DNA of 64,000 nt from Eledone cirrhosa (taxonomy: Eukaryota), in the NCBI GenBank assembly GCA_964016885.1, contig OZ024747.1:65844001-65908000 (forward strand), written 5' to 3'. Below the pieces are notes generated by a model. The model did not search any database. It was not told the origin of the DNA and worked only from the letters and a program-made list of their open reading frames with translations. How positions within the stretch are numbered: position 1 is the stretch's first letter; each line of letters opens with the position of its first letter. The position numbers and the translations under genes were made by a program. Shown piece after piece: positions 7,434-64,000 of the stretch.

Positions 7434-7915
7434 AACATTTGACAGTGACAGGGAGGGAGGTGCGTTTCATTAGAACATTTGACAGTGACAGGGAGGGAGG
7501 TGTTTCATGAGAACATTTGACAGTGACAGGGAGAGAGGTATGTTTCATTAGAACATTTGACAGTGATAGGGAGGGAGGTGTGTTTCATGAGAACATTTGA
7601 CAGTGACAGGGAGGGAGGTATGTTTCATTAGAACATTGACAGTGATGGGGAGGGAGGTATGTTTCATTAGAAAATTTGACAGTGACAGGGAGGGAGGTAT
7701 GTTTCATTAGAACATTTGACAGTGATAGGGAGGGAGGTGTGTTTCATTAGAACATTTGACAGCGACAGGGAGGGAGGTGTGTTTCATGAGAATATTTGAC
7801 AGCGATGGGGAGGGAGGTGTGTTTCATGAGAACATTTGACAGTGACAGGGAGGGAGGTATGTTTCATGAGAATATTTGACAGTGATGGGGAGGGAGGTAT
7901 GTTTCATTAGAACAC
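7434..7915. repeat. 40-bp minisatellite, about 12 copies
   Basis: Unit AACATTTGACAGTGACAGGGAGGGAGGTATGTTTCATTAG with minor variants and no spacers. Confidence 0.95.
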
Positions 7916-26017: not shown

Positions 26018-26048
26018 ACCTTTCTCGCTCTCTGTTTAACCTGCCAAC

Positions 26049-29000
26049 ATGGCCGTATTAAGAGTAGGATGTTTAAATGTTCGAGGCCTGGGATCGTCCT
26101 GGAAGCAGGGTCACCTTCTCAACGACCTCAGGTCTATAATAATGGATGTTATTTGCAGTCAGCGAGACCAGGATTTCCGAGACGCGCGCACTAGCCCACA
26201 TTTTCGACGACTATCAGATCTTTGCATCTGTTAGCCGGCCGGGAATGGGAGGCGGGGTGGAAGTGCTGTTTAGGAAAGGCCTGGGTCTCGAGGTAAGGTC
26301 GATCTTCCGGGACCCGGACGGGAAGTTGGTGGTCCTGGACGTGAACAATAATGAAGGTGGTGCCTTTAGACTGGTGGCCGTCTATGCTCCTACTGGGGCA
26401 GGACGGCCGGACTTCTTTAGACGCTTGGAAGCCTTTCTGGGTACGTCTCGTCCTTTACTGTTAGCGGGGGACTGGAACGGCATCTTAGACGCACGCTGGG
26501 ACTGTGTGGGAGTATCCGATAGGAGCGGGGGGGGGGGGGGTGTAAAAGCCTCAAGAACCTGATCAGCCAGTTCCAACTGTCTGACAGGTACCGACTAGAT
26601 TTCCCTAGTGCGCCAGTATGGACCTGGGCTAACCGCATAGGGTCATCTAGATCGTATATAGACAGGATATTCATTAGGAAAATAGACAGAAATAGTGTAG
26701 GCTGTCCACGTTTTGAAACGGTCGCCTATTCAGATCACAAGTTTGTGATCTGTATGGTCGACCTAGATAAGACGCGTAGGTTAGGACCTGGTTACTGGAA
26801 GCTAAACATGTCATTTCCGGCACGTAAGGCTTACAGGGACCAGGTCAACAATTTAGTTAAGAAAAAGTTGACAGGGGAAGTCGTCAACAATAGATGGTGG
26901 GGGGCTCTCAAAAGAGAGATTAGAGTAATGTCGATAGAGTTTAGCAAAGAAGTAGCATCAGAGAAAAATAGAAAGGAGGGGGAGTTGGTAGATAAGTTAG
27001 ACGAGGCTATTGGTAGTGGCATTGCAACTGATGTGCTAGCGGCGAGAATGGCATTAGACCATTTCTTCAATGCGAAACACGAAGATTGCATTGTCAGAGC
27101 TAAGGTGCGTGCTCTGAGAAACGAGGGAACCAAAGCTGTTCGATGGGCCCGCGTGGCAGAGGCGCAGCGTGGAAATAAAACCACGATTCGATCTTCGACG
27201 GTCCGAGACGGGTACGAGCTGAGCGATTCGGTTGTTCGGGGGAAGTGGCGGGTCAGAGATGGTGGCGGACTTCAGTCCCTACCTCGATGGCTTGCCGCAA
27301 CTCTCGACGGCTTACGCTGGGCGCTGCGAAAGGCCAATTACTTCAGCCGAGATTCAGGATGCCCTTGTCGGCTGCATGAGGCGCAAGTCACCCGGTTTGG
27401 ATGGTCTGCCCTACGAGCTTTACGTAAATATGCCAGACTTGTTCTCCAATCTCCTCGAAGCCCTCTACTGCAACTGGCAGCAAAACGGGAGTATTCCCAG
27501 TTCTGTGAGCCGGGGCGTAGCGACGCTGATAAGGAAAGACGAGAACAAGAGGGACACATTAGACAATTTCAGGCCCATAACTCTGCTCAACACAGAGTTT
27601 AAGATTTTGGCCAGGGTGTTAGCGAAGAGGTTGGCGCTTGTCGTCGGGGATTTGGTTGGGGAGGCGCAAACTTGTGCAATCTCAACCAGGTCCATACACG
27701 ACAACCTCCACCTAATGCGATACATCATAGAGAGGGTAGGGTGTAAACCTGGCTTCGGTGGGGCTCTGATCAATTTAGATAAATCGAAAGCATTCGATAG
27801 GGTCAACCATCGGTACCTGGAGGCTGTCTTCAAGGCGGCTGGCTTCGGCCCCGTCTTCAGAAGCTGGATCGCTGCAATGCACAGCGGCACCTGCTCGATG
27901 GTCAAAATTAATGGCCACCTCTCGGAACCGTTTCAGGTCTCCCGATCGGTCCGTCAAGGGTGCCCTCTCTCCTCCCTTCTGTACGTATTGATTCTCGAGC
28001 CTTTACTGCGGAAGCTGGAGCTGTTGCAGGGCATCCCGCTCGAACCGTGACGCGGAAAGGCTGTGTCGGCTTATGCGGACGACATCACCGTGATGGTGTC
28101 GGACACCTCAGAAATTGAGGTGGTCGGCAATTTATTGGAGGAATATGAAAGGTTGACGGGAGCAAAACTTAACCCGGAAAAGTCAGTAGGCTTGCAACTC
28201 GGCACCTAGAGAGGCAAGTCCATGCCGTCCAACAGCGTCGTTAGGCGCTGGACGGACGAACCGGTAAAGTTGCTAGAGGTTTGGTTCGGGCCAGACCTCC
28301 AGGTGGATAAGAATTGGGACGAGGTGACGGGCAGAGTAGTCAGTCTCACCCAGAAATGGGCTGGGATGAAGCTATCACTGAAAGGTCGGGCGGAGGTGGC
28401 GAACGCGTACATCGCGTCCGTCATCTACTACCGTCTGACTGTCGTCCCTTGCCCCCGTTCGCGCCTCTCCATCTTGGAGCGGCTCCTCTTCAAATTCTTG
28501 TGGAGGGGTCAGGTTCCGCTGGTGAGGCGGTCCATCTGCTGCCAGCACCCTCTACGTGGAGGGCTGGGCATGCCGTGGCTAATGATGCGCAAGCACGCGC
28601 TGAGGCTGCGGCATCTCCAGGTATTCTGCCTAAACGGTGAACAGGTGTGGTCGCCGTTTGTCAGACGGGCCTTTCCGCAGCTCGTTTCTTTGACTGAGTT
28701 GCAGTCCTGGGCCAAGAAGAGACCGAGACTGGGTGACTGGCATCTGGAATGTTGCCAGGCACTCACTGCCCTCTACCAGACGGGCAATGCGGTCAGTAGA
28801 ACTTCCACTCTCGAGTTCTATAGAGGATTAGTGGTGGGCAAGTGCGACGACACACTCGGAGAGGCTCTGGGAGTCAACGAAGTCGAACTAACCAGTCTGT
28901 ACCGGAGGACTTTCGAGCCGGGGACGATGGATAACTTCCAAAAATCCCTCGCTTGGCAGTGCTACTGGGGGGCACTGCCGGTTCGAGATAAACTCTACAG

Positions 29001-29442
29001 GCACGGAAGTGTTGTCAGACGGACCTGTCCGAGATGCGCGCAGAGCGACGAAACCGTTCTGCACGCACTCGTCCAGTATCCGTGCATTACTGACTTGTGG
29101 AGTTATGTTGAACAGCTGTTGTCGCGTGTAGAATGGATCCGGCTATCGGCCGAGTCCATAGTGAAGATCGACCCGCCGCATTCTTTTGGCCAGGAAGGGC
29201 AGGCAATTTTCCTCTGTCTGGTGGCAGTAGCGAAATAGGTTGTATGGTGGACGAGGTTGAAAGGACTGAAGACAGACACTTTTCTCTTCGGCTAATCCCT
29301 CATCAACTTTTTTAAGTTTCACTTGGAAAGGAAGGTGAGGGTGGAGAGAGAAGTGCTGCCCCCCAGTACATTTGCTGAAAGGTGGGTGAATGTGGCGAGA
29401 ATGGCCCGTGTGAGTGGGCCTACTCTGGTCATGCGGCTGTAG
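26049..29442 (+). pseudogene. Tx1 copy A ORF2 (AP endonuclease + reverse transcriptase), frameshifts and stops
   Basis: Endonuclease motifs LNVRGL, VYAP, GDWN, SDH. RT motifs PGYWKLN, KSPGLDG, FRPITLLN, KAFD, VRQGCPLS, YADD. C-terminal CPRC...ETVLHAL. Confidence 0.93.
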
Positions 29443-29714
29443 GTAGGTAAATTTGAAGAGGAGAGGGGTGCCCTTCCAGGGTGCTCTCGAAGCGTCGGGT
29501 CGTTCAGGACTGGTGGGGTACCTGAGCGAACACTAGGTGGTCATCCCCCTATTGGGGAATTTTTTCTTGTAATTTTCTTGTTACTTTATTTTTACTTTGT
29601 TATTGTTACTTTGTTTATTCATATTGTTTACTCGATTTTTCTGTAAAACCCCACTGTCCCAGTCTTTTGTTTTGTCCCCTATATGTCGGCCCCTGTGGCC
29701 AATAAATGAAATCC

Positions 29715-29746
<32 letters not shown>

Positions 29747-29923
29747 GGCAAAGGTTTGTTATTTTCAGTTGTTCAAAATTGCCATTCATGGAAAATTTTA
29801 TTGTTAACTGTATATAAGTGCACATACATTGTTATCTGAAAAGGACACCCAAAAAGATTGGGGCCTTGAGCCCAAAATTTAAACTTTTATAATTATCAAA
29901 CAAAAATTTTTCTTTGAAACATC

Positions 29924-31859
29924 ATGGCTGACTCAGAGTCACTCCTTTCTCACAAACTAACACCTCACACCGACACCACCATTATAAATATTACTACGTT
30001 TGCCAACACAAAAAAAATATAAGCAGTAGCAATATTTTAAATTTGTCTCAGGCAGACATTCATTTCCCGCCATTACCAATGACTGCAGGTGTTAAAGCCC
30101 CCCCCCCCACCACCACCACCGCGACAACAGAAACAAAATAAAAAAATAAAAAAATAAATTAACTCGTGATATCGAAATGAATTCAAACAAAATGAACTCT
30201 TCCACACCGAACACCACTGACGCCACCACCACCACAACTGAAACTAAAATTAATAATAAAAAAAATAACGATAACAACAACAGCAACAATGACATTAAGA
30301 AAATCACCCTGAGTTTTGCCAGAGTAGCAAAACAGTGCGAAGCATTTAGGTAACTCAGGAGGAATTAGAAGAAGCCAAAACATTGGTAAAGAAAGATGGG
30401 TACAGGGTCAGCCTCACCCCCCACCTAATAAAATGGAGCATCGGCACCTATGCACCGTGTCTTATCGAACAATTAATATAAAATCGCGCCGAGTGGAACG
30501 GGCATCCGAGTCCCAAATCCAAAAAGCTTTGGGACATGTGTGGGCAAAAAACCCCCACATCAGACGTGGGCAGAAGTATGGAACCGTGGACGTGTTCTTT
30601 GAAACACCACAGGAGGATAGAGAACACTCCATGGCCCCATTAAGAAGTGACGACTTCACACTCGTCCCAAGCTATTGTGGCCAGAGACTGGTAAAGATCA
30701 GAGTCACCCACGTTCCACCGGCCATCGAAATTCCCTGGCTAATAGCTGCCGTCCTCGCCGGCATCGAAGCCAACACCAAGATAATCGAAATAGCGAAAGA
30801 AAAGCAGGAGAACTGGTCCGGATCTGGGATGGAGCTCCTGATCCAAGCGGACCAAAAAAGCATTGAGGAGATCCCAGAGGTAATAGACCTCACTGACGGC
30901 AGCCACCTCACCGTAATTGTCGAGGACAGAAGGCCTAGGTGTGTCGTCTGTGGTGAAGGAACCCACCTAAGGGCCATCTGCCCTCAGGCTAAAAGGTTGA
31001 GGCCACCTCTCCTACCCACCCCAGTGACTCAACCATCAACACCACCAGCAGCAGAGATGGCAGCAACAACTGTAGCAGCAACAACAGAAGCAACTGTAAC
31101 AGCAACAACCCCAGCAACAGTAGCAAAACCACCACCACCACCACCCAACGCGCCAGAACTAGCACCAGCGCCTACACCATCCACCACGCCACAAACAAAA
31201 CTAACGCCAGTGGAGGATTTTCCACTCCCCGGCCTATCACAACCACAACTGGAGACAGATTGTGACGACGAGGAGTGGGAAACGGTATCAGGAAAAAAGA
31301 AAAAAAGAAACCAAAAGAGAAAAAATTCTCTTCCTTCCTCTCCGAAAACAAAATACAGAGGGAAACAAATAAACTATCAAACAAAAAAGTTAGGACAGAT
31401 ATGCCACCATCCACACCAGCATCACCAACCCCATCACCCCAAACACCAACACCATCACCATCATTAACCCCAATACCACCATCACCTACACCACAAAAGT
31501 CACCAAAAAGCGAAACAGATAGAAACCCACAACAAACACAAACAAAACAAAGCAACCAAAACAATACACACTACACAGCATTAAATTTGAACAACCAATT
31601 ATTACACTACATCCAACACAACACCAGCATCACAGAAAAAAACTACACAACAACCCAAAAGTTCACACGACCTCCACACATACAAATCACTCGCATCACA
31701 CAGAAAACGTACATGACACTAAAACAAAAAATCGCCAAAGACATCGGAGACTTCCGACAAGCACTCTCTAGGAGAATTTATAAGGACATCCTTCCTGAGG
31801 AGGCCACAAGCAGTGAAAAGGATGGAGAAACCGTCCTTCCTCTACGAGAAGTAAGGTAA
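29924..31859 (+). pseudogene. Tx1 copy B ORF1, frameshifted
   Basis: ORF pieces 30433-31467 and 31275-31859. CVVCGEGTHLRAIC knuckle, RGQKYGTV motif matching RGRQYGTI in A, and WETVSGKKKKR. Confidence 0.85.
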
Positions 31860-31893
31860 GTGGTCTTTCCCATCTTTTCCACTCCATTTCAAC

Positions 31894-34800
31894 ATGATCT
31901 CACTCAGAATAGGCAGCATAAATGCGCGTGGCTTGGGGTCGTCATGGAAGCAGGGCCACCTGCTCAACGACCTCAGGTCACTAAACATAGATGTAGTGTC
32001 CATCAGCGAGACCAGAATCTCCGAAGCACGCGCCTTCGCACCGATCTTCGGCGGCTACGATGTGTACGCATCTCCCAGCCGTCCGGGATCGGGGGGGGGG
32101 GGGGGAGGAGTTGCTGTGCTTTTTCGGAGAGGTTTGGATCTCGCCATCTTCTGGAACCAGAAGGTAAGTTGGTGGTGCTGGACGTGACCAGCGGACACGG
32201 GCAAGCTTTCAGGCTAGTGGCCGTCTATGCCCCGACAGGAGCAGGGCGGCCTGATTTCTTCCGGCGTCTGGAGACCTTTCTTGGAACGTCCCGCTCTTTA
32301 GTGTTAGTGGGCGACTGGAACGGGATCTTAGATGCACGCTGGGACTGTGTGGGATAAGCGGATAGGGGAGGAGGGTGCAAGAGTCTCACCAACTTGCTCA
32401 GGCGTTTTGAACTGTCTGACAGGTACCGATTGGATTTCCCGAATGTGCCAATGTGGACTTGGACAAATCGCATAGGGTCATCCAGATCATATCTAGATAG
32501 AGTATTTTGTAGGGAAATAGATAGGTATAGCATAGGCTGTCCACAATTCAAGATAGTCAGCTACACGGACCATAAATTCGTGATCTGTGTGCTTGACTTA
32601 GATAGGCTTCAAAGACGAGAACCCGGCTACTGGAAGCTAAACGCGTCCTTACCAGCGCGCAAGGCCTACAGAGACCGGATTAGCGAACTAGTTAAGCGGG
32701 CGTTGACGGGGGCCATCGTCAACAACAAGTGGTGGTTTGCTCTGAAAAGAGCAATTAGAATAGAGTCCATTAGGTTTAGTAAGGCTTTAGCAATAGAGTA
32801 AAATAGAGCAGAGGGAGAATTAGTTAGAAAATTAGACGAGGCGCTTAGCAAAGGCATCGCGACCGACGTACTTGCGGTGAAATTGATCCTTGACCAATTC
32901 TTCAATGCAAAGTACGAAGGCTGCGTTGTCAGAGTTAGGGTGCGTGCTCTCAGACACGAGGGGACGAAAGCCGTTCAATGGGCCCGAGTGGCGGATGCGC
33001 GTCGTGGCAACAAAGCCACGATCCGGTCTTTGGTGGACCACGAGGGGCGCATGCTACTCGATCCCGGGAAAATGTGTGAAGCTTTTCAGCGACACTTCGC
33101 TCAACTGTTCGGGGGCAGTGGCGGGCCGGATCGAGGGATGGACTTTAGTGTCTACCTCGACGGACTGCCGCGGCTCTCGGCCACTGAGGCGGAGTGTTGC
33201 GAAAAGCCGATAACAGCCGCTGAAGTACGGGAGGCAATGACTGGCTGCACAAGGGGTAAATCGCCTGGTTTGGATGGTCTGCCCTATGAACTTTACGTAC
33301 ACATGCCAGACTTGTTCGGAGGCCTCTTGGCAAACGTCTACTGCAACTGGCAACAGAACGGGAGAATTCCCAGCTCTGTGAGCCGAGGAGCGGTGGCGCT
33401 GCTGAGAAAGGCTCCGAACAAGGGGGATAACATAGATAATTTTAGGCCCATAACTCTGCTAAACACAGAGTTCAAGATTTTGGCCAAGGTGCTAGCAAAG
33501 AGGTTGGTGCTTGTCGTTGGTGGTCTGGTGGGAGAGGCGTAGACATGCGCCATTCCCGACAGATCCATCCACGACAACCTCCACCTCATGCGATACATCG
33601 TAGAGAGGGTAGCTATAGAACCTGGCACGGGTGGGTCCTTGATCAATTTAGATCAGTCGAAAGCTTTCGATAGGGTCGACCATCGTTACCTAGCGGCCGT
33701 CCTGATGGCGGTTGGCTTTGGGCCCATCTTCAGACGCTGGATCGCTGCCATGCACAGCGACATCTGCTCTGTGGTGAGAGTGAACGGTCACCTTTCGGAA
33801 CCGTTCAACATCATGCGCTCGGTCCGCCAAGGATGTCCCCTCTCGTCCCTCTTGTACGTATTGACTCTCGAGCCATTACTGCACAAAAAGTGGAGACGTT
33901 GAGGGGGGTCCCGCGCGAACTAGGATGCGGAAGATCCGTGTCAGCATATGCGGACTATGTCACCGTAGTGGTGTCGAACGCCAAACACATCGAAGCGATC
34001 GGCACTACACTAAGAGAATACGAAGCGGTGACAGGAGCAATGATCAACCAGGAAAAGTCAGTGGGCCTGCAGCTCGGCACCTGGAGAGGCAGGTCCATGC
34101 CGTCCAACAGCGTCGTCGGGCGCTGGACGGACGGACCAGTTATATTGCTAGGGGTCTGCTTCGGTCCGTACCTCCAGACGGACAAAAACTGGGACGAAGT
34201 GACGAGCAGGGTGGCTTCTCTCACCCAGAAATGGGCCGAGAGGAAGCTATCCCTGAAAGGTCGAGCGGAGGTGGCTAACGCGTACATCGCGTCCGTCATC
34301 TACTACCGCCTGACCGTCGTACCTTGTCCTAAGCTCCGCCTGACTGCGCTGGAGCGTTTGCTCTCTCGCTTTTTGTGGAAGGGACGCTCTCCGATGGTCA
34401 GGCGGTCCATCTGCTGTCAACACCCGCAACGTGGAGGGCTGGGCATGCCGTGGCTGATGATGCGCAGACACGCGCTCAGGCTACATCTCCACCTGTTCCT
34501 CGACGGTGATCAGGTGTGGTCGCCGTTTGCTAGACACGTCTTTCCCAGCTCGTCTCCTTGACGGAGCTGCAGTCCTGGGTCAAGCGAAGACCGAGAGGGA
34601 GCGCTTGGAGACTGGAATGTCTTCAGGCGCTCACAGCCCCCGACCAATCGGGCAATGTGATCGGTGGAAACTCCAACTTGGCGTTCTATAGGGGATTAGT
34701 GGAGGGGAAGAGCGACAACGTACTTGGAGAAACTCTAGGCGTCGACGAAAATCAACTAGCCAATCTCTTCGGAAGGACTTTCGGGCCGGGGCCTATGGAC

Positions 34801-35290
34801 AACTTCCAGAAATCCCTGGCCTGGCAGTGCTACCGAGGAGCTTTGCCAGTTCGGGATAAACTCTATAGGCATGGAGGTGCCGTCAGCCGGGCATGTCCGA
34901 GATGCGCGCAGAGCGACGAAACCGTCCTGCACGCACTCGTCCAGTGTCCGAGCATTGCTGACTTGTGGGTTTATGTCGAACACCTGCTGTCACGTGTAGG
35001 ACGGATCCAGCTATCAGCTGAGTCCATCGTGAGTAATGCCCCGCCCTCTTCCTTTAGCCGGGAAGGGCAGGCAGTTTTATCAGTCTGGTGGCCATGGCGA
35101 AAGAGATAGTATGGTGGACACGTTTGAAAGGACTGAAGACGAGCACTTACCTCTTCGGTGATGCCCTGATTAACCTTTTCAAATTTCATTTCATAAGGAA
35201 AATCAGGGTTTCCAGCATTTTGTTGAAAGATGGGTGAGAGAAGCAAGTATGGCCCGAGTGAATGGGCCTACTCTGAGTATGTGTCTGTAA
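31894..35290 (+). pseudogene. Tx1 copy B ORF2 (APE + RT), disrupted
   Basis: INARGL, VYAP, GDWN, TDH, KSPGLDG, FRPITLLN, DQSKAFD, VRQGCPLS, YADY (mutated YADD), CPRC. Several stops and frameshifts. Confidence 0.93.
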
Positions 35291-40071: not shown

Positions 40072-43000
40072 CTACAGGCTGATATAGAGAGAAGGCCCAT
40101 TTACTCGGGCCATTCTTGCTACTTTCACCCACCTTTCATAAAACTTGCTGGGGTAGAGCACCTCTCTCTCCATTCTGATCCTTCTTCTAAAGTGGTACTT
40201 GAAAAAAAAGACCAGTTGTTTGCCGGAGAGAAAGGTGTCTGACCTCAGCCCTTTCAACCTTGTCCACCATACAACTTCTTTCGCCATAGCTATCACACAG
40301 AGGAAAACCGCCTCTCCTTCGTTTTTGAAAGGGGAGGCGGTTTGATCGTGACAATGTACTCGGTGGTCAACCGGATTGGTCCCACCCGCGACAGTAGTCG
40401 TTCCACATAGCCCCACAGGTCAGCAACGCCCGGGCAGTGTACGAATGCGTGTGCGACGGTTTCCTCGTCACGCACGCATCTCGGACAGATCTTCTTCGAG
40501 GGGTCCCTACCCGGGCGCCCGTGTCTGTAGAGCTTGTCCCGAACGGGTAGAGCTCCTCGGTAACATTGCCAAGCCAGGGACTTTTGGAAGTTGTCCATCG
40601 TTCCCGGGCCAAACGTCCTACCGAACAGACTGGCCAGCTCATCTTCCTCCATTCCCAGAGCTTCTCCGAGAGCGTCGTCGCACTTACTGCGCACCAACCC
40701 TCTATAGAATGTTGAGGTTGAGTCTCCACTGATTGCCGGATCCGCTTGCCAGAGAGCCGTGAGCGCCTGGGCACATTCAATGTGCCAGTCGCCCACTTTT
40801 CTCGGTCTTTGCTTGACCCAGGATTGCAGCTCGGTGAGTGAGACGAGTCTCGGAAAGGCTCGCCTCACAAACAGGGCCCACACCGGCTGACCGGTGAGGA
40901 ATACCTGGAGGTGCCGTAGCCTTAATGCGTGTCTACGCATCGTCAGCCACGGCAACCCCAGCCCTCCGTTCGAAGGGTGTTGACAGCAGATGGATCTTCT
41001 CATCAAAGGAGCCCGCTTCTTCCAAAGAAATCGGAAGAGCGCGCGCTCCATTTTGGCGAGTGTTTTCTCTGAGCAAGGCACGACGTTCAAGCGGTAGTAG
41101 ATGACGGACGCTATATAAGCGTTCGCCACCTCCGCTCGACCTTTCAGGGATAGTTTGCACTCGGCCCACTTCTGGGCGAGTGCAAACACCTTGCCCGTTA
41201 CCTCGTCCCAGTTTTTCTCCACCTGGAGGTCCGGTTCGAACCAGACCCCGAGCAGCTTCACCGGTACCCCCGTCCAGAGTCCGACGACACCGTCGGAGGG
41301 CATCGTTTTGCCCATCCACGTCCCGAGTTGCAAACCGACGGACTTGTCCCGGTTCAGCTTGGCTCCTGTGAACCTTTCATATTCCTCCAGTAAGGTGCCG
41401 ATCTGCCCGATTTCCGAGGCGCACGACACCATTACTATCACGTCATCGGCGTAGGCCGACACCGCTTTCCGCAATCCCGGTTCCAAGGGGATGCCTTGCA
41501 ATAGCTCCAGCTTCCGCAGTAGTGGCTCGAGAGCCAGCACATACAGGAGGGTGGAGAGAGGGCATCCCTGTCGGATGGATCGCGTGATTTGGAACGGCTC
41601 CGAGAGGTAGCCGTTCATCTTGACCCTCGAGCAGGTGTTGCTGCTGTGCATTGCAGCAATCCAGCCCCTGAAAACGGGTCCGAAGCCTGCCGGCGCGAGC
41701 ACCGCATCCAGGTACCGATGGTCAACACTATCGAACGCCTTAGATTGATCCAAGTTGATCAGGGCCCCACCAAAGCCGGGTTCGTTCCCTACCCTCTCTA
41801 CGATGTATCGCATGAGGTGGAGGTTGTCGTGTATGGATTGCGCATGTCTGCGCTTCTCCCACCAGGTTCCTGACGACAAGCGCCAACCTCTTTGCTAACA
41901 TCATGGCCAAAATCTTTAACTCTGTGTTTAGCAGAGTTATGGGCCTGAAGTTATCTATGTCATTCTCCTTGTTCTCGTCCTTCCTCACCAGTGTGACTAC
42001 GCCCTTGGTCACAGAACTGGGAATTCTCCCGTTCTGTTGCCAGTTGCAGTAGACCGCCTCGAGGAGACCGGAGAACAAGCCCGGCATCGCTACATAAAGT
42101 TCGTATGGTAGACCATCGAGACCCGGAGATTTGCGTTTGCCGCATTGGCTCAGCGCTTCCCCTATTTCAGACCGTCGAGGTATGTACCGAAATCCATGGC
42201 TCCACCCAGCCCGCCGCCCCTCCCGAACAGTCGTGCAAAGCGCCGTTGAAAGGCCGCGCTCATCCGCTCAGGTTCAAGGATCATGCGTCCATCCTGGTCC
42301 TTCAAAGACCGAATCATGGACTTGTTTCCACTTTTTGCCTCTATCACTCGGGCCCAGCTAACAGCTTTGGCTCCCTCGTTACCCAGAGCACGTATCTTAC
42401 TCCTGACAACGCAGCCCTCGTGCTTCGCATCAAAGAACTGGTCTAGGGCCATTCTTGACGCCAGCACGCCGGCCACGTTGCCACTCCTAATCGCCTCTTC
42501 TACTCTATTTGTTAATTCCCTTTCAGTTCTATTCCTATCTGATGCTAATTCCCGACTAAAACCTATCGATTCTATTCTAATTTCTCTCTTGAGAGAGCCC
42601 CACCACCCGCTGTTGACAATTTCCCCCGTCAAACGCTGCTTAACTAGTGTGCTAATCCGCTTACTGTAAGCTTTGTTTGTTGGTAAAGACAAGTTTAGCT
42701 TCCAGTAACCGGGTCCCTGTCTATGAGTTCTATCAAGGTTGACCACTCCGGTCACCAACTTGTGATCCGAATAGTCAACCATGAACATTCGTGGACAGCT
42801 TAATATGTCCCTATCCTTATTTCTAACTAGGAACCTATCTAGGTACGACCTAGATGTTCCGCTGATATTAGTCCACGACCACAGTGGCACAGTCGGAAAA
42901 TCTAGTCGATATCTATCGGCCAGATCAAATCGGCCGATTAATCGTTTGAGGCTGTTACACCCCCCTCTATCGGGACATGCCCCTATATAGTCCCAACGTG

Positions 43001-43442
43001 CATCCAGGATACCATTCCAGTCCCCCACTAAAAGCAAGGAGCGAGACGTTCTCAGGAAATTCTCCAGGCGTCGGAAAAAGTCCGGTCGCGGTGTCCCAGA
43101 TGAGGCATACACTGCCACCAGCCTGAAAGCTCCACCTTCACCACTGCCGACGTCTAAAACCACCAGTCGACCCTCCGGGTCCAGGTGTACCTTCTGTGTG
43201 GCAAGACCCAGGTATTTTCGCAGCAGAACGACAACCCCACCCCCACCCCTCGGCTGACAGAGAGATGCGTAGATCTCAAAGTCGTCGAAGATGGGGGCCA
43301 GTTGGCGCTCGCTGCTGATCCTGGACTCGCAAATAACCATTACATCCACTCTGTGCGACCTGAGGTCATTTAAGAGTTTGCCCTGTTTCCAGGACATCTC
43401 CAGGCCGCGTGCATTCACGCATCCAACTCTTATATTGGCCAT
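40072..43442 (-). pseudogene. Tx1 copy C ORF2 (APE + RT), few frameshifts
   Basis: ORF pieces 42162-43442 (VNARGL, GDWN, SDH, PGYWKLN), 41740-42087, 40293-41879 (DQSKAFD, IRQGCPLS, YADD, CPRC..HAFVHC) and 40072-40416. Confidence 0.93.
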
Positions 43443-43484
43443 GTTGGTGCTGAAGAGTTAAAAAGGAAGAGGAAAGGGAATTAC

Positions 43485-56456: not shown

Positions 56457-56677
56457 ATATGTAGGTGTGTATTTAAGTATGTACATCCTTCATTGAGAAA
56501 ATCGATAAATCTGTACTGCGGAACAAAAGTACCGTGTAGTGTTTGTTCAGCCCAAGCTACTTTCATAACTGTTCCTCGTTCATCTCGCCATTGTCAATGT
56601 GCCAGTGATTGGCCCATTGAAAACCGGTAATCAACGGCGTCATTGTTCACATAATACCATAGGAAGTAAACCACTAC
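56457..56677 (-). pseudogene. Possible host (pseudo)exon, product unknown
   Basis: Bounded by TTAG| and |GTAAGT. 73 codons (VVVYFLWYYVNNDAVDYRFSMGQSLAH*QWRDERGT...) with one in-frame TGA, in non-repetitive sequence. Confidence 0.25.
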
Positions 56678-57618
56678 CTAACTAAATATATAAGTAAATA
56701 TATAGATATACTTTATCTAACTCAGAGAGGAATAGAGGAAAAGAGGGAGAGAGAGTTGATAGAGAGAGTTGAGAGAGAGTTGAGAGAGAGAGAGAGAGAG
56801 GAAGAGACGGAGAGTTGAGAGAGAGAGATAGAGAGACAGAGAGAGAGAGAGAGAGAGTCAAAGAAGCAATAGAAAGAAGAGATGTGTGTGTTCTTTCTAT
56901 CACAAGAATATGACAAATGGCTGTACTAGACAGAAACCACCAGCATAAGATATATGACTGAGATCAATACAGCGCTGAGAAAATAGCTCTGCTGCTTTCA
57001 AATGACGTTTTTGTATCACAATTTCATTGATTACTGGAATATATAGACAGAAGACAACACAGAGATTTTGTTGTTTTGTTAATAAGAGGCCAAAGGTGAT
57101 GTAAATGAATTTAGACACAAAGGCCAGGGGCAGTAAGCAGTCGCTAGGTGTCTGAATAATGGGTGGAGCTGTATATAAACATGTCTCTGTTACATGGTAT
57201 ATTTACAACATCCTACGTAATGGCATGGTTAAATATGATGCCAATAAAATGGGTCAATGAAGACGGTGGCGGTAGGTGATCGAATGGGTGGTGTGTTGGA
57301 TGCATATTATATTTATTTTCATTCCATGTAGTAGCAGGAATTTGGCTTTGTAATGGCGAAGATTGGTTACAAGTTGGAACTTATTGTGTGATACCTGGAG
57401 CAAAGGTTTTTTACATTAATCTCAATCCATCCAAGCCTTCATAGTCGGAAACTGTGTGGAAGCCCGTCGGATAGATTATATTTTCCTCTGTCATGTTATT
57501 TCCTTTTCTCTTTCACTTTCTTCTACGACACACACACACGCGCACATATACATATACGTACACACACACACACGTGCACATATACATATACGTACACAAA
57601 CACACATATATAATATAT

Positions 57619-57658
<40 letters not shown>

Positions 57659-57820
57659 ATATATATATATATATATAAGGGAGGAAATGTGGTAAGGAAC
57701 CAGGTGGACCATAACGCAAAAAAGTACTCAATACTTAGGGTAGTAGAGTGGGTGATAGGAACGAGTAGGACCCCAAGGGGTCCTACTCGTTCCTATATAT
57801 ATATATATATATATATATAT

Positions 57821-58330
57821 TAGTAAGTAGAGTGAATTTTTTGAAATTTTTTCTTATTTGCTAAACCTTAATTATATATGTTCTGGCTCGTTAATTTATT
57901 AACCTGTCATTGAACCACATTCGCATATGGTTGGGTAATACATGTGTTCCTATTCGTATTATTATTAATCTCTCCTTGGTCGAGATGAAATCTGGTCGTT
58001 TTGACTGCTGCTATTTATAGTGGTAGTAGATTGACCTCCCTGCCTCTGCCTTCTATCTTTACACACGGCACTGGACAGAATTGCTTCCACATCCTTTATT
58101 TTCATCTCGGGAACAATTTTGAATAGTGCCAGTTCGTAATTTGAACTCGGGAATTTTATATTCTCCGAGTGAAAAGAACCTTCTGACGAGAGTTTATCTT
58201 TTCAATGGAAGCCCGCAAGGACTTTCCATTTATTTTTGAGGCTCGAAACCGATTCGGTAAAGGTAACCATAGTAAGTACAGTGAATATTTTGAAATTTAT
58301 TTTGAAACTTTTCTTATTTGCTAAACCTTC

Positions 58331-58336
<6 letters not shown>
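57821..58336 (+). mobile_element. Retrozyme-like monomer (449-bp unit with terminal direct repeat) carrying a canonical hammerhead
   Basis: Direct repeat TAGTAAGTA..GTGAAT..TTTTCTTATTTGCTAAACCTT at 57821 and 58270. Hammerhead at 58178-58264. (TA)n flanks. Confidence 0.75.
58178..58264 (+). ncRNA. Type I hammerhead ribozyme
   Basis: Stem I ACCTT/AAGGT, CTGACGA at 58183, stem II closed by GAG/CTC, GAAA at 58245, stem III ACCG-ATT-CGGT, GUA cleavage triplet 58257-58259. Confidence 0.88.
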
Positions 58337-60014
<1,678 letters not shown>

Positions 60015-60152
60015 CATATATATATGTATATATATATATATATATATACATATATGTATGTATATATATATATACGCAAACACATACACACATATATATT
60101 TTCCCCGTCCTACCACTTCTCTATTTTTCTATTTCATCTTTTATTTCTCCTA

Positions 60153-60188
60153 TCTTCTGATGAAGGACTAGAGTCTGAAACTTTAAGA
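60153..60188 (+). ncRNA. Minimal hammerhead of a CTGATGAAGGACTAG family (other copies on the minus strand at about 14008-14042 and 53421-53456)
   Basis: CTGATGA-AGGAC-TAGN-GTCC-GAAACGT consensus seen in three dispersed copies that share flanking sequence. Confidence 0.7.
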
Positions 60189-60237
60189 CTCCTTTTCTAT
60201 TATGTCGAGCATTCATCTAATATATTTCTTCATTGTA

Positions 60238-60545
60238 CAGGGTGGTTCGAAGTCTTGTCACCCCCTACCACGTCTTTTGTCCATGTCGTTATCGCTTAGT
60301 TCGTTGACGAATGTTGGTTTAAACGATTAAAATTACTATATATCATAATTAATTGTTTCTACTTTTGGCACAAGGTCAGTAATTACCAAATAAATTACTG
60401 GTACTTTATTTTATCGACCCCGTAAGGAGAAAGGCAAAGTTTATTATATATTATAATTTATGATATTATATATTATATTATTAAAACCAAAAATAATGCA
60501 GGTTAAAACAATATGTAAGGGTGACAAGACTTTCTGACCACCCTG
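60238..60545. mobile_element. Tc1/mariner-type MITE with a nested SINE fragment
   Basis: About 27-bp imperfect TIRs CAGGGTGGT..AAGTCTTGTCACCC, TA on both sides. It interrupts a hammerhead-family tail. Confidence 0.78.
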
Positions 60546-60598
60546 TAACCTGTCGTTTGCATTGTTATTTCTGTTTACGTTTTACATACATACACAAT

Positions 60599-60741
<143 letters not shown>

Positions 60742-60780
60742 TACATATATATATAAATAAATAGTTAAATAAATAAATAA

Positions 60781-60879
<99 letters not shown>

Positions 60880-60930
60880 TGTATGTATGTATGTATGTAT
60901 GTATGTATGTATGTATGTATATGTATATAT

Positions 60931-61480
60931 GGTGGCAGCCAACTCGTTTTCGAGTACGGCCACTACTTCATATCCATGTAGGAGAACCCCTACCGATGCG
61001 CTGAACGAATGTGACTTTTTAGTCCAGCCAGCGACTTGAAAACCATGGTACAAACACTACACTTGTGACAATTATTGACACATAGTGCTGGTCCCATGGT
61101 ACCATGTGACGACAAGTGCAGAGAGATCTCCAGATATAAAGTAATGCCTGTGCCGTGAAGCTTTTATAGTCCCACTCTCTTAACCAAGATGATATTTACC
61201 AAAAAGAAGAACAAGTCAACATCATTGGATACCATCAGAGTTGCAGGTGTTATATCAGAGTTTTCCTTCTCCTAGAATTCTGCCTTGACAAAGGCTAAGT
61301 GGTCATCTCTCCCGGTGATTTTGGATGGCCATTGACTCTTAAGAGCTCCTTTGCCCTTTGACAGGTTTTGTTTTTAGTCCTGCAGGATGTCCAAAGTCAC
61401 CCTCCTCACCAAGAAACCTTGGTGGGGTTGCCGGTTTAGTCGCCAACGACCCGACCATGAGACAGGTTGTACTGGGATAC
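60931..61480 (-). mobile_element. About 550-bp non-coding retroposon (SINE or non-autonomous LINE derivative) associated with (ATAC)n
   Basis: 61320-61480 matches 18770-18926 and 60931-61185 matches 11558-11838, both in opposite orientation. All three copies abut (ATGT)n or (TA)n. Confidence 0.7.
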
Positions 61481-61484
61481 ATAT

Positions 61485-61645
<161 letters not shown>

Positions 61646-62151
61646 TGTGTGTATAAAATCCACAAGCATAACTTTGTTATGGTCTAGAATCCCGATGAAA
61701 CCAAATATCACTTATTCTGTCAGTCGACCGTAAAACTATAGTGTTAATTTTATTTGTAAGTTTTGATATTTCCTCACCTCAACTAACCACTGACTATGTT
61801 GTTATCGACGGATTGTGTCGATGTAACGCCGTTAACGACATGTTAGTTGAGAAGATGGAAATAAATCTGATGCCATTTTTACTAAATTCGATAAATGCCT
61901 CACGGAGACGACATGAAAGTTTTGAAAGAAAGATGGCAAAAAAGAATTAAGATGGCGGAGAAAGCAGAGAAGAAAAGAGGTTCTGTCTCAATAAATTGCT
62001 TCTTCTCATAATATTTCCCATCTCAACATGTCTGTATTGATTCGAAATTCACTAATAGATTAGTCAAATTTACGAATTCACTCCGAAACATTTTACAATA
62101 ACCTATATGTTTTGTTTGTCTTAGTTCAATAATTCTTAAAGGAATCCATTC

Positions 62152-62246
<95 letters not shown>
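62152..62246. repeat. (CTAT)n microsatellite
   Basis: Direct reading. Confidence 0.97.
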
Positions 62247-62247
<1 letters not shown>

Positions 62248-64000
62248 GGGCCCGCGTGACAGAGGCCAACAGTGGAACTAAATCCACCATCCGGTCTTTG
62301 CGAGACCTGGATGGACGGGCGATTCTTGAGCCTAAGCAGATGTGTGAGGCCTTTCAAAGGCACTTTGCCCGACTGTTCGGGAGGGGCGGGGAGCCGGTTG
62401 GGAACGTGGACTTCGGTCCATACCTCGACGGCCTGCCGCGCCTCTCGGACAGGGAGGCGAAGTCCTGCGAGGAGCCGATTTCGGCGGCTGAGATAGAGGA
62501 CGTGCTGAGCCAATGCGGCAAACGCAAATCCCCGGGTCTCGATGGTCTTCCTTACGAATTATATCTAGCTATGCCGAACTTGTTCCCCGATCTCCTCGAG
62601 GCGGTCTACTGCAATTGGCAACAGAACGGGAGAATTCCCTGTACTGTGACCAAGGGCGTAGTCACGCTAGTGAGGAAGGACGAGAACTAGGGGGACGATA
62701 TAAATAATTTCAGGCCCATAACTCTGCTAAATACAGAGTTACAGATTTTGGCCAAGGTGCTAGCAAAGAGGTTGGCGCTTGTCGTGGGCAACCTGGTGGG
62801 AGATGCGCAGACATGCGCTATCCCGTCCAGGTCCATCCATGACAACCTCCACCTCATGCGATGCATCATAGAGAGGGTTGGGAACGAACCCGGCTTTGGT
62901 GGGGCTCTGATCAACTTGGATCAATCTAAGGCGTTCGATAGGGTCGACCATGGTTACCTGGATGCGGTGCTAGCGGCGGCAGGCTTCGGACCCGTTTTCA
63001 GGGGCTGGATCACTGCTATGCACAGCAGCCGCATCTGCTCTAGGGTCAAGGTGAACGGCTACCTCTCGGAGCCGTTCAAAATCGCGCGGTCCATCCGACA
63101 AGGGTGCCCTCTCTCCTCCCTTCTGTATGTGTTGACTCTCGAGCCACTACTGCGGAAGTTGGAGTTGTTGCAGGGCATCCTTTTGGAACCGGGATTGCGG
63201 AAAGCGGTGTCGGCCTACGCCGATGACGTGACAGTAATGGTGTCGACGGCCTCCGAAATCGAGGCGGTCGGCACCTTACTGGAGGAGTACGAAAAGCTCA
63301 CAGGGGCTAAGCTGAACCGGGACAAGTCGATCGGTTTGCAACTCGGCACGTGGAGGGGCAGACCGATGCCCTCCGATGGCGTCGTCGGACGCTAGACGGA
63401 GGGCCCGGTGAAGTTGCTCGGGGTCTGGTTCGGACCGGACCTCCAGGTGGAGAAAAACTGGGCGGAGGTTACGAACAGGGTGTTTGCACTGACCCAGAAG
63501 TGGGCCAGTTGCAAACTATCCCTGAAAGGTCGGGCGGAGGTGGCGAACACCTACATAGCGTCCGTCATCTACTACCGCCTGACCGTAGTGCCCTGCCCAA
63601 GGGAAACCCTCACCAAGATGGAGCGCGCGCTCTTCCAATTCCTTTGGAAGAGGCGGGCTCCTATGGTGAGGAGATCCATCTGCTGTCAACACCCTTCGAA
63701 TGGAGGGCTGGGGATGCCGTGGCTAATGATGCGTAAACACGCATTAAGGCTACGGCACCTCTACGTATTCCTCACCGGACAACCGGTGTGGGCCTCGTTT
63801 GTGAGACGAACCTTTCCCAGACTCGTCTCACTCACCGAGCTGCAATCCTGGGTCAAGCAAAGACCGAGAAAACTGAGCGCCTGGCACACTGAGTGTGCCC
63901 AGGCGCTCACCGCCCTCTGGCAGGCGGATCCGGTTATCAGTGGAGACTCCACCGCAACATTCTATAGAGGGCTGGTACGCAGCAGGTGCGACGACGCCCT
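62247..64000 (+). mobile_element. Tx1 copy D, 5'-truncated ORF2 (RT region), runs off the window, closest to copy C
   Basis: KSPGLDG, DQSKAFD, IRQGCPLS, YADD. Shares the MHSSxxCSRVK segment with C. Begins immediately after (CTAT)n. Confidence 0.92.

What the first reader, a model, noticed from the sequence alone, without database searches (positions are those of the whole stretch)
57821..58336. Second, different retrozyme-like monomer (449 bp) with a textbook hammerhead directly upstream
Seen: a complete core (CTGACGA at 58183, G-C-closed stem II with an internal AATGGAAG/CTTTCCATT hairpin, GAAA at 58245, ACCG/CGGT stem III, GUA, ACCTT/AAGGT stem I). It sits in a unit bounded by a direct repeat of about 55-65 bp (57821, 58270) and has no ORF. 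Inference: about 1.1 turns of a circular template. This is the best candidate for an active ribozyme in the window.
Basis: partly seen in the sequence, partly recalled or inferred. Interest (0 to 1): 0.75.

Follow-up and report, generated by a model that had tools for sequence, protein, structure and literature searches.

The report
Hammerhead retrozyme copy in TA microsatellite
This 519-base stretch is one truncated copy of a non-coding jumping element, present in hundreds of copies in this genome, that carries a complete hammerhead ribozyme motif and was likely pasted into a TA repeat by the enzymes of Penelope-like retrotransposons, which makes it a new member of a known kind (animal retrozymes).

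Summary
Window 58178-58264 is a complete type I hammerhead motif. It is the only site in the 64 kb that passes a strict descriptor, and 0 of 20 shuffled windows gave a hit. The flanking direct repeat is real.

The locus is one copy of a dispersed family:
- A 27-mer from the ribozyme has 576 exact matches in the genome and 0 in the control.
- The family unit is 486 nt. The 449-nt spacing here comes from deletions in this copy.
- In 79 sampled loci there are 113 arms. 105 of them end at one of two internal AU-rich sites and run into (TA)n.
- 5' ends vary and arm lengths are 57-1148 nt. Paired arms are always head to head.

This is the anatomy that Penelope-like elements (PLEs) leave. The genome also holds a very abundant endonuclease-bearing PLE whose minimal hammerhead shares the retrozyme's 3' half.

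The best reading is a 1.14-unit, 5'-truncated insertion of a non-LTR retrozyme, likely mobilised by PLE enzymes. Self-cleavage, RNA circles and the identity of the mobilising enzyme are inferred, because no RNA data were available. No Rfam hammerhead model matches, probably because helix II is 55 nt long.

It is a new member of a known kind. The scan found similar PLE-type repeats before on other DNA.

The parts
57794..57820 (.). (TA)13 microsatellite on the left flank, taken to be the target DNA
   Evidence: TRF, period 2, 13.5 copies. In most of the sampled copies that lack an inverted arm, the 5' flank is also (TA)n.
57821..58339 (+). One insertion of the 486-nt family: unit positions 11-486 followed by 1-81, which is 1.14 units. 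It is 5'-truncated and ends at the family's main 3' end.
   Evidence: blastn of the family unit against the window gives 57821-58259 = unit 11-486 (88%) and 58260-58339 = unit 1-81 (96%), and no other copy in the window. The alignment with L003, L007 and L010 shows two deletions specific to this copy.
57821..57879 (+). First copy of the terminal direct repeat (unit about 11-81, lacking 12-13 nt)
   Evidence: (repeat families D8 and D9).
58270..58339 (+). Second copy of the terminal direct repeat (unit 11-81), which is the overlap of the 1.14 turns
   Evidence: (repeat families D8 and D9).
58178..58264 (+). Type I hammerhead motif: helix I 5 bp (open), core CUGACGA, 55-nt helix II, GAAA, helix III 4 bp with a triloop, and GUA
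   Evidence: by reading; the only strict-descriptor hit, with 0 in 20 shuffles; it is among the 67 of 94 family instances whose core and all three helix bases are intact.
58259..58260 (+). Predicted self-cleavage site, between A58259 (H17) and A58260 (N1.1)
   Evidence: Follows from the standard hammerhead numbering applied. It was not tested.
58330..58339 (+). Internal ATTATATAT motif at which the insertion ends (unit about 73-81)
   Evidence: 71 of 113 sampled arms end at unit 75-83 and run into (TA)n. 27 of the 30 best-matching loci show the same end; in the other 3 the unit reads straight on into a further copy.
58333..58366 (.). (TA)17 microsatellite on the right flank. It overlaps the element's own TATATAT end.

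Best explanation
Window 57821-58339 is a 5'-truncated, 1.14-unit copy of a dispersed, non-coding family with a unit of about 486 nt that carries a complete type I hammerhead motif, and it was likely inserted into a (TA)n microsatellite by target-primed reverse transcription carried out by the enzymes of a Penelope-like element (PLE).

Shown by the calls:
- the motif;
- the family (hundreds to thousands of copies);
- the fixed 3' ends at two internal AU-rich sites that abut (TA)n;
- the variable 5' ends;
- arms longer than one unit;
- paired arms that are only ever head to head;
- a very abundant endonuclease-bearing PLE in the same genome, with the same head-to-head habit and a minimal hammerhead that shares the retrozyme's 3' half.

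Inferred mechanism:
1. Copies with two or more units are transcribed.
2. The hammerhead would cut after GUA and release 486-nt monomers. The monomer is predicted to fold into a highly paired RNA.
3. A host ligase would circularise the monomers.
4. The PLE endonuclease nicks a TA repeat. Its TA 3' end anneals to the RNA's UAUAUAU (unit 75-81) or to the AU-rich stretch at unit 181-195.
5. The PLE reverse transcriptase copies round the circle, or along a multimer, and stops at a variable point.
6. Because (TA)n reads the same on both strands, the second nick can prime a second, inverted arm.

The copy in the window has one intact ribozyme only. It is a dead-end insertion, not a source of circles.
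For: Motif:
- It is the only strict-descriptor hit in the window, with 0 hits in 20 shuffles.
- The core is intact in 83 of 94 aligned family instances. The core plus the bases of all three helices are intact in 67 of 94, and the window copy is one of them.
- 92% of cells are paired over 25 pairs, against 18-59% when the 3' partners are slid.

Family size and period:
- 61 matches from 2543 first-look candidates.
- 576 exact matches to a 27-mer, with 0 in the reversed control.
- Tandem period 485-487 nt.

Insertion anatomy in 79 loci, taken in coordinate order from the first 100 exact-27-mer matches, which hold 113 arms:
- 71 arms end at unit 75-83, 34 end at unit 180-199, and 8 end elsewhere.
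- Arm lengths are 57-1148 nt, and 28 of 113 exceed 567 nt.
- The 24-nt 3' flank consists of at least 70% TA steps in 72 of 113 arms.
- Opposite-strand ribozyme pairs are '-+' in 9 of 9 cases and never '+-'.
- Among the 40 best of 2921 candidates, the longest array is about 1529 nt, or 3.1 units, and no long array appears.

No coding capacity, low GC, and a well-paired monomer:
- The longest ORF is 46 aa and GC is 0.33-0.35.
- The monomer RNA folds at -123.6 kcal/mol, against -99.15 +/- 5.2 for shuffles. The z-score is -4.70, and 0 of 100 shuffles fold as well.

PLE partner:
- All 150 scored GIY-YIG matches are over the cut-off, out of 10,597 candidates.
- L123 has a 938-aa ORF with RVT_1 followed by a C-terminal GIY-YIG domain. 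It is flanked by the same motif 4979 nt apart.
- A 36-mer of that motif has 10,373 exact matches and 0 in the control. In the first 100 matches there are 17 '-+' pairs within 2.5 kb and 0 '+-' pairs.
- The retrozyme's CGAAACCG[ATTC]GGTAAAGG[T]AACCA equals the PLE motif's CGAAACCGGTAAAGGAACCA apart from the two bracketed insertions (read).

Literature, as passages read:
- PLEs show (TA)n bias, partial tandems, inverted 5'-truncated copies and a one-sided tail (PMC8557442).
- Animal non-LTR retrozymes are described in PMC7229834.
- A PLE origin of retrozymes is argued in preprint 10.64898/2026.07.22.740005 (abstract, section 14 and passages).
Against: - No Rfam hammerhead model matches at any threshold tried: 0 matches at gathering over the whole window, none among 54 matches at E up to 10 in 56500-64000, and none in a 141-nt search.
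- The hammerhead-constrained fold of the isolated 106 nt (-20.0 kcal/mol) lies 2.8 kcal/mol above the unconstrained minimum (-22.8). The 121-nt stretch does not fold better than shuffles (z -0.22).
- Covariation is thin. One pair shows UA 63 / CG 18 / UG 4, and both of its sides are CpG sites, so CpG decay fixed in a subfamily could mimic compensation. The outermost helix I pair is unpaired in 43 of 87 distinct rows.
- 5' ends are not specially enriched at the cleavage site. About 4-5 arms start at unit 1-4, but other positions recur as often (157-159, 216, 281, 413-416). Two of the unit-1 junctions are explained by microhomology between the two helix I strands. The DNA therefore gives no record of cutting.
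- blastn finds no similarity between the unit and 22 PLE loci. The link to the PLE rests on about 20 nt of the ribozyme and on shared insertion anatomy.
- The window locus has only one ribozyme.
Confidence: 0.8

Rival explanations
1. The family is retrotransposed as described, but the hammerhead and RNA circles play no part. The templates would be plain read-through transcripts of earlier multi-unit insertions, or cleaved monomers joined by template jumping of the reverse transcriptase. The ribozyme would be a passenger inherited from the PLE end.
For: - Every arm longer than one unit contains an uncut ribozyme site.
- 5' ends show no special peak at the cleavage site.
- The arm-length tail is short. 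2 of 113 arms exceed two units plus the tail, and the longest array seen is about 3.1 units.
- Craig et al. note that PLE clades without canonical hammerheads proliferate well (PMC8557442 passages).
Against: - 5' truncation at every round would shrink a family that starts from copies of at most 3 units, yet 28 of 113 arms still exceed 567 nt and no long source array was seen.
- The ribozyme core is intact in 83 of 94 instances.
- The monomer folds far better than shuffles, as reported for retrozyme circles (PMC7229834 passages).
Confidence: 0.25
2. The stretch is only the terminal repeat (pLTR, 3' end) of an autonomous PLE in its usual truncated form, and not a separate non-autonomous family.
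For: In other genomes, earlier follow-ups of this scan reduced similar 'retrozyme-like' calls to PLE tails (notes e1-7908855 and e1-7812955). The 3' half of the ribozyme matches a PLE minimal hammerhead.
Against: - In 113 arms, longer copies always continue into another 486-nt unit, up to 2.36 units, and never into coding sequence. The longest array is 3.1 units.
- blastn finds no similarity between the unit and 22 PLE loci, including full-length ones.
- The unit has no ORF.
Confidence: 0.05
3. It is a SINE-like element mobilised by a LINE. The window holds several LINE reverse transcriptases with an AP endonuclease. The TA tail would play the part of a poly(A) or microsatellite tail.
For: LINE-type ORFs (RVT_1, Exo_endo_phos, zf-RVT) lie in the window. 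5' truncation and microsatellite 3' tails are also LINE traits (recalled, not taken from a call).
Against: - Both arms of the inverted pairs carry their own 3' end, head to head, in 9 of 9 cases. That is the PLE pattern (PMC8557442 passages) and not L1-type twin priming.
- (TA)n lies on both flanks.
- Partial tandems are the rule.
- The ribozyme's 3' half is shared with a PLE.
Confidence: 0.05
4. It is a satellite or segmental duplication with a chance hammerhead-like motif.
For: No Rfam hit. The genome is very rich in simple repeats.
Against: - The strict descriptor gives 0 hits in 20 shuffles.
- Copies are dispersed over many contigs, with 5' truncation and defined 3' ends.
- No long arrays were found.
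Confidence: 0.02

Closest known systems
Non-LTR retrozymes of animals (Cervera & de la Pena 2020, PMC7229834; Li, Clavereau & Pollet 2026 preprint, 10.64898/2026.07.22.740005)
   Same: - Non-coding, low-GC repeat with a type I hammerhead in each unit, found as monomers, dimers and short multimers.
- Highly self-paired monomer RNA.
- Co-occurs with PLEs.
- Shares ribozyme sequence with a PLE terminal motif.
   Different: - The unit is 486 nt. The papers give about 150-450 nt for repeats and about 170-400 nt for circles (passages).
- Helix II is 55 nt long, where metazoan canonical hammerheads are described with about 4 bp (PMC4209133 passage).
- Helix III is a stable 4-bp stem with a triloop.
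- No long arrays were seen (maximum about 3.1 units).
- The strict tie to (TA)n, the two alternative 3' ends and the head-to-head arms are not mentioned in the passages I read.
- RNA circles are not shown here.
Minimal hammerheads in the pseudo-LTRs of metazoan Penelope-like elements (Cervera & De la Pena 2014, PMC4209133)
   Same: The 3' half (GAAAC, helix III, GUA, AAGG(U)AACC) is shared with the abundant PLE of this genome. That PLE motif has the U3-A8 core covariation and a palindromic helix III (ACCGGU), both described in that paper (passages).
   Different: - The retrozyme has the canonical C3-G8 core.
- A 4-nt insertion makes helix III a stable monomeric hairpin.
- Helix II is far longer.
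- It sits in a 486-nt non-coding unit, not beside a reverse transcriptase / endonuclease ORF.
Insertion anatomy of endonuclease-bearing PLEs (Craig, Yushenova, Rodriguez & Arkhipova 2021, PMC8557442)
   Same: (TA)n target bias, partial tandems, an inverted 5'-truncated copy head to head with the direct copy, and an extension present at only one end (passages).
   Different: - The one-sided extension is about 110 nt here (3' ends at unit 81 against about 190), against the 30-40 bp reported.
- The element encodes nothing.
Plant LTR retrozymes (Cervera et al. 2016, PMC4918200; seen as a search listing and abstract only)
   Same: Non-autonomous, ribozyme-bounded unit thought to circularise.
   Different: The plant elements have type III hammerheads in real LTRs, a primer binding site and polypurine tract, 4-bp target-site duplications and GC above 55% (as summarised in the passages). 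None of that applies here.
   Same: A short non-coding unit dispersed into TA microsatellites with PLE-type anatomy.
   Different: That unit carries a tRNA gene instead of a ribozyme. It lies in another genome and I did not check it.

Membership tests
Hammerhead ribozyme, type I | Conserved core C3 U4 G5 A6 N7 G8 A9 ... G12 A13 A14 ... A15.1-U16.1, and H17 not G | tested here: met
   CTGACGA 58183-58189, GAA 58245-58247, A58248-T58258, and A58259. The strict descriptor hits it.
Hammerhead ribozyme, type I | Three helices round the core, with helices II and III closed and helix I open | tested here: met
   Helix I has 5 bp (4 bp in about half of the family), the base of helix II has 4-6 bp plus a distal hairpin, and helix III has 4 bp with a triloop. 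92% of cells are paired across 94 instances.
Hammerhead ribozyme, type I | Match to a curated covariance model (the Rfam hammerhead families) | tested here: not met
   No hammerhead family appears at gathering, at E up to 10 in 7.5 kb, or in 141 nt. The 55-nt helix II is the likely cause, which is an inference.
Hammerhead ribozyme, type I | Compensatory changes that keep the helices | tested here: inconclusive
   One helix II pair shows UA 63 / CG 18 / UG 4, but both of its sides are CpG sites. The family is young, about 95% identical between copies.
Hammerhead ribozyme, type I | Self-cleavage at the predicted site | not testable with these tools
   This needs in vitro transcription. No RNA run was listed.
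Non-LTR retrozyme (animals) | Type I hammerhead inside a short, non-coding, low-GC unit repeated head to tail | tested here: met
   The unit is 486 nt with a period of 485-487 nt. Copies have up to 2.36 units in the sample and 3.1 units in the best 40 candidates. No ORF exceeds 46 aa. GC is 0.33-0.35. The window copy itself has only 1.14 units and one ribozyme.
Non-LTR retrozyme (animals) | Monomer RNA is highly self-paired | tested here: met
   -123.6 kcal/mol against -99.15 +/- 5.2 for shuffles, z -4.70, and 0 of 100 shuffles fold as well (folded as a linear molecule).
Non-LTR retrozyme (animals) | Expressed as linear and circular unit-length RNA | not testable with these tools
   No RNA holder was listed. 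The runs that were laid are contigs of unknown kind and give no ends.
Non-LTR retrozyme (animals) | Co-occurrence with PLEs and sequence kinship to a PLE terminal region | tested here: met
   PLEs are abundant. About 20 nt of the ribozyme's 3' half are identical to the PLE motif apart from two insertions. No wider similarity is found by blastn.
PLE-type insertion (target-primed, GIY-YIG endonuclease) | Microsatellite target, fixed 3' end, 5' truncation, partial tandem, and a head-to-head inverted copy | tested here: met
   105 of 113 arms end at two AU-rich sites that abut (TA)n; 9 of 9 opposite-strand pairs are '-+'. Searches show the same in the first 30 loci.
PLE-type insertion (target-primed, GIY-YIG endonuclease) | Dependence on a PLE reverse transcriptase / endonuclease | not testable with these tools
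   This needs a mobilisation assay.
Autonomous Penelope-like element (as a fragment of one) | Contiguity with a reverse transcriptase plus GIY-YIG ORF in longer copies | tested here: not met
   Longer copies continue into further 486-nt units. blastn finds no similarity to 22 PLE loci.

The most novel reading that the evidence does not exclude
The family is a genomic record of rolling-circle reverse transcription of a hammerhead-made RNA circle. TA-microsatellite DNA ends, cut by a PLE endonuclease, prime on two UA-rich sites of a 486-nt circle and copy more than one turn. This regenerates multi-unit copies without any long source array. Because (TA)n reads the same on both strands, each nick primes its own arm, which gives the obligatory head-to-head pairs with 3' ends about 110 nt apart.
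Probability: 0.35. Interest if true: 0.6.

Novelty: new member of a known kind. Interest (0 to 1): 0.4.

Why it matters
Animal retrozymes and their PLE origin are already in print, so the class is not new. This family adds an unusually clean insertion anatomy. The anatomy has two defined priming sites inside the unit, TA repeats on both flanks, arms of up to three units without long arrays, and strictly head-to-head pairs. The likely autonomous partner sits in the same genome in more than 10,000 young copies. That makes two open questions testable in one species. The first is how retrozymes are copied, from a circle or from a multimer. The second is why PLE insertions come as inverted pairs. 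The family also shows that a complete hammerhead with a long helix II escapes all Rfam hammerhead models, so surveys based on Rfam will undercount such elements.

Tried and rejected
- **RNA evidence.** The look-up of sequencing runs listed no RNA holder. The four runs laid (X1-X4, Logan contigs of unknown kind) gave only short fragments at very high word depth and no usable ends or joints. That says nothing about expression. X4 (organism B) holds part of the unit (share 0.21), and I did not follow this up.\n- **Rfam.** Three searches found no hammerhead.\n- **Search for arrays of three or more ribozymes by a gapped pattern.** One search was over the size limit. I stopped and asked the same question with a natural 1148-nt DNA query instead.\n- **5' ends as a record of cutting.** Rejected. 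Unit position 1 is only one of several recurrent 5' ends, and two of those junctions are helix I microhomology.\n- **Per-column variation in ribozyme columns against other columns.** Not informative. The values are 0.054 against 0.080, or 0.041 once subfamily-polymorphic columns are dropped. The sample was also chosen by an exact 27-mer.\n- **Multiple alignment of this family's ribozyme region with the PLE motif and three other retrozyme-like families**. It is too divergent for a trustworthy alignment, so I made no cross-family covariation count.\n- **LINE ORFs in the window**, including the one at 62133-63998, were checked as possible partners. They are AP-endonuclease / zf-RVT LINEs, not PLEs.\n- **Earlier notes of this scan.** There are none for this genome or this sequence.\n- **Rows dropped.** 5 of the 98 ribozyme instances, the shorter and truncated ones, were left out of alignment A3.\n- **Not done.** I did not place the PLE in a clade and did not name the organism.

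Full report
**1. The observation**

The sequence at 58178-58264 reads as a complete type I hammerhead:
- Helix I is ACCUU (58178-58182) with AAGGU (58260-58264) and is open-ended.
- The core is CUGACGA (58183-58189).
- Helix II spans 55 nt (58190-58244). It is closed at its base by G-C, A-U, G-C and U-G, and it carries the AAUGGAAG/CUUUCCAUU hairpin. The unconstrained and constrained folds also predict that hairpin.
- GAAA is at 58245-58248.
- Helix III is ACCG/CGGU with an AUU loop.
- H17 is A58259, so cleavage is predicted after 58259.

I wrote a strict descriptor: both core boxes, helix II at least 3 bp, helix III at least 3 bp, helix I at least 4 bp, U16.1, and H17 not G. It finds this site and no other on either strand of the 64 kb, and nothing in 20 block-shuffled windows. 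The flanking direct repeat is real. No ATG ORF exceeds 46 aa.

Against this, no Rfam hammerhead model matches at any threshold. The hammerhead fold of the isolated 106 nt lies 2.8 kcal/mol above the minimum free energy. The long helix II is the likely reason for the Rfam miss, which is an inference.

**2. It is one copy of a family**

- The 516-nt stretch has 61 scored matches from 2543 first-look candidates in its own 3.0-Gb genome.
- A 27-mer covering GAAA, helix III, the cleavage site and the 3' strand of helix I has 576 exact matches and none in the reversed control.
- Copies are on average about 95% identical to one another. The window copy scores 94.3%.
- Where two units lie in one insertion the period is 485-487 nt, and the two units are 94-98% identical.
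- The 449-nt spacing in the window arises because this copy lacks a 26-nt and a 13-nt segment.
- With position 1 as the first base after the predicted cut, the window copy is unit 11-486 followed by 1-81, which is 1.14 units. It is the only copy in the window.

**3. Insertion anatomy**

I took the first 100 exact-27-mer matches, all on contig C1 in coordinate order. They fall into 79 loci, which I fetched and mapped against one natural unit. The 79 loci hold 113 arms.
- 3' ends: 71 arms end at unit 75-83, inside GAUUAUAUAU. 34 end in the AU-rich stretch at unit 180-199. 8 end elsewhere.
- Nearly all arms run straight into ATATAT. In 72 of 113 arms the next 24 nt consist of at least 70% TA steps.
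- 5' ends are scattered. Arm lengths run from 57 to 1148 nt, and 28 of 113 exceed 567 nt.
- Where no inverted arm lies upstream, the 5' flank is mostly (TA)n too.
- Ribozyme pairs on opposite strands are always '-+', that is head to head, in 9 of 9 cases. In most such pairs one arm ends near unit 81 and the other near unit 190.
- A 1148-nt natural query found five full-span matches among the 40 best of 2921 candidates. The longest array is about 1529 nt, or 3.1 units, and there is no long array.

This is retrotransposition with a fixed 3' end, 5' truncation, a template longer than one unit, and a TA-repeat target. It is not satellite amplification.

**4. The enzyme side**

- A Pfam GIY-YIG search of the genome gave 150 scored matches, all over the cut-off, from 10,597 candidates.
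[quoted passage not shown] This is the canonical order of endonuclease-bearing PLEs.
- That frame is flanked 4979 nt apart by the motif CCUU-UUGAAAA-GCAG..CUGC-GAA-ACCGGU-A/AAGGAACC.
- By the standard numbering this is a minimal hammerhead with a U3-A8 core pair and a palindromic helix III. Cervera and De la Pena describe both features for PLEs (PMC4209133 passages).
- A 36-mer of the motif has 10,373 exact matches and 0 in the control. In the first 100 matches, 17 neighbouring pairs within 2.5 kb are '-+' and none is '+-'.
- The retrozyme's CGAAACCG[AUUC]GGUAAAGG[U]AACCA equals this motif apart from two insertions. The first insertion turns the palindromic helix III into a stable hairpin.
- blastn finds no wider similarity between the unit and 22 PLE loci.
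- Craig et al. report (TA)n bias, partial tandems, inverted 5'-truncated copies and a one-sided tail for PLEs (PMC8557442 passages).

**5. The ribozyme across copies**

- In 94 aligned instances (93 from the sample plus the window; 5 shorter ones were dropped), the core is intact in 83. The core plus the bases of all three helices are intact in 67, and the window copy is among them.
- Over 25 proposed pairs, 92% of cells are paired, against 18-59% when the 3' partners are slid.
- Only one pair shows a clean double change (UA 63, CG 18, UG 4). Both of its sides are CpG sites, so I treat it as weak support.
- The outermost helix I pair is kept in only half of the rows, so helix I is effectively 4-5 bp.
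- The 486-nt monomer folds at -123.6 kcal/mol, against -99.15 +/- 5.2 for shuffles (z -4.70, 0 of 100). This matches the 'highly self-paired' trait reported for retrozyme RNAs (PMC7229834 passages).

**6. Mechanism**

Shown: the motif, the family, the insertion anatomy, and a co-resident PLE with a related ribozyme end and the same insertion habit.

Inferred:
1. Multi-unit copies are transcribed.
2. The RNA self-cleaves into 486-nt monomers.
3. A host ligase closes them into circles.
4. The PLE endonuclease nicks a TA repeat.
5. The TA 3' end primes on the UA-rich sites at unit 75-81 or 181-195.
6. Reverse transcription runs round the circle or along a multimer and stops at a variable point.
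7. A second arm is primed from the other nick. This would be easy here because (TA)n reads the same on both strands.

The DNA cannot tell a circular template from a linear multimer or from template jumping between cleaved monomers. Every arm longer than one unit crosses an uncut or religated site. 5' ends at unit 1 are no more frequent than several other recurrent ends, and two of them are helix I microhomology junctions. The lack of long arrays, together with steady 5' truncation, favours a template that regenerates multimers. That argument is indirect.

The window copy itself has one intact ribozyme and no second one, so it could be cut once but could not yield a unit-length RNA.

**7. What is known, and novelty**

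Animal non-LTR retrozymes (PMC7229834) and their derivation from PLE terminal repeats (preprint 10.64898/2026.07.22.740005; abstract, section 14 and passages read) cover this class.

The family differs in four degrees:
- a 486-nt unit;
- a 55-nt helix II that escapes Rfam;
- a stable helix III;
- a strict TA-repeat anatomy with two 3' ends about 110 nt apart and obligatory head-to-head pairs.

I file it as a new member of a known kind. Earlier notes of this scan describe PLE-type repeats in TA microsatellites, and PLE tails mistaken for retrozymes, in other genomes. I tested the 'PLE tail' reading here and it does not fit.

No RNA data could be had. I opened no supplementary files, and they may already list this family.

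Noticed in passing
window 58367-59899: The neighbour in the same TA microsatellite is a different retrozyme-like family with a 523-nt unit at 100% identity between units. It is built head to head: an inverted arm at 58364-58510 is 99% complementary to 58830-58976, and it is followed by about 2.7 direct units that end in ...CTCTTATAT plus (TA)n. The two arms again end about 116 nt apart in unit coordinates. Its CUGACGA...GAAA motif has a long helix III and one U-U mismatch in helix I by eye, and it fails my strict descriptor.
   Followed up: partly
window 57678-57793 (minus strand): A third insertion in the same TA repeat is a discrete element of about 112 nt with a 38-nt palindrome at one end. 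It has 1503 first-look candidates in the genome, and nearly all 40 scored copies are full length at 91-97% identity. It also lies beside a 486-family arm in L014. Its kind is unknown.
   Followed up: partly
L123, L124, L127, L130, L131 and others (own genome): A very young, very abundant endonuclease-bearing PLE. A 36-mer of its minimal hammerhead (U3-A8 core, palindromic helix III ACCGGU) has 10,373 exact matches. Two other PLE families carry related motifs. One reads GCAA where GAAA is expected, in about 10 copies seen.
   Followed up: partly
L124:6501-7420 and L132:about 6250-7700: Further retrozyme-like families sit in TA microsatellites downstream of PLE copies, with units of 459 nt and about 700 nt. 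The 459-nt family has a long helix II, a 3-bp helix III and a fully different but complementary helix I (GCUGU/ACAGC). It shares the blocks TATAT(T)GTTCTGG and (C)ATTGAACCACA with the 486-nt and 523-nt families.
   Followed up: partly
window 4490(-), 4564(+), 17204, 20805, 21408(-), 23509, 36202, 60157: Nine further hammerhead-like sites have a 2-bp helix III and a helix I of up to 8 bp, the minimal type described for PLEs. Some lie in inverted pairs. CTGANGA-N6-36-GAAA occurs 20 times in the window, against 3.6 expected. Rfam reports none of them.
   Followed up: partly
window 24297-35109 (+), 40293-43457 (-), 62133-63998 (+): Several LINE-type ORFs are present (RVT_1, zf-RVT, Exo_endo_phos). 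The frame at 62133-63998 is broken by two in-frame stops.
   Followed up: partly
runs X1-X4: A second organism (organism B, run X4) holds parts of the unit (share 0.21), so related species may carry the family.
   Followed up: no
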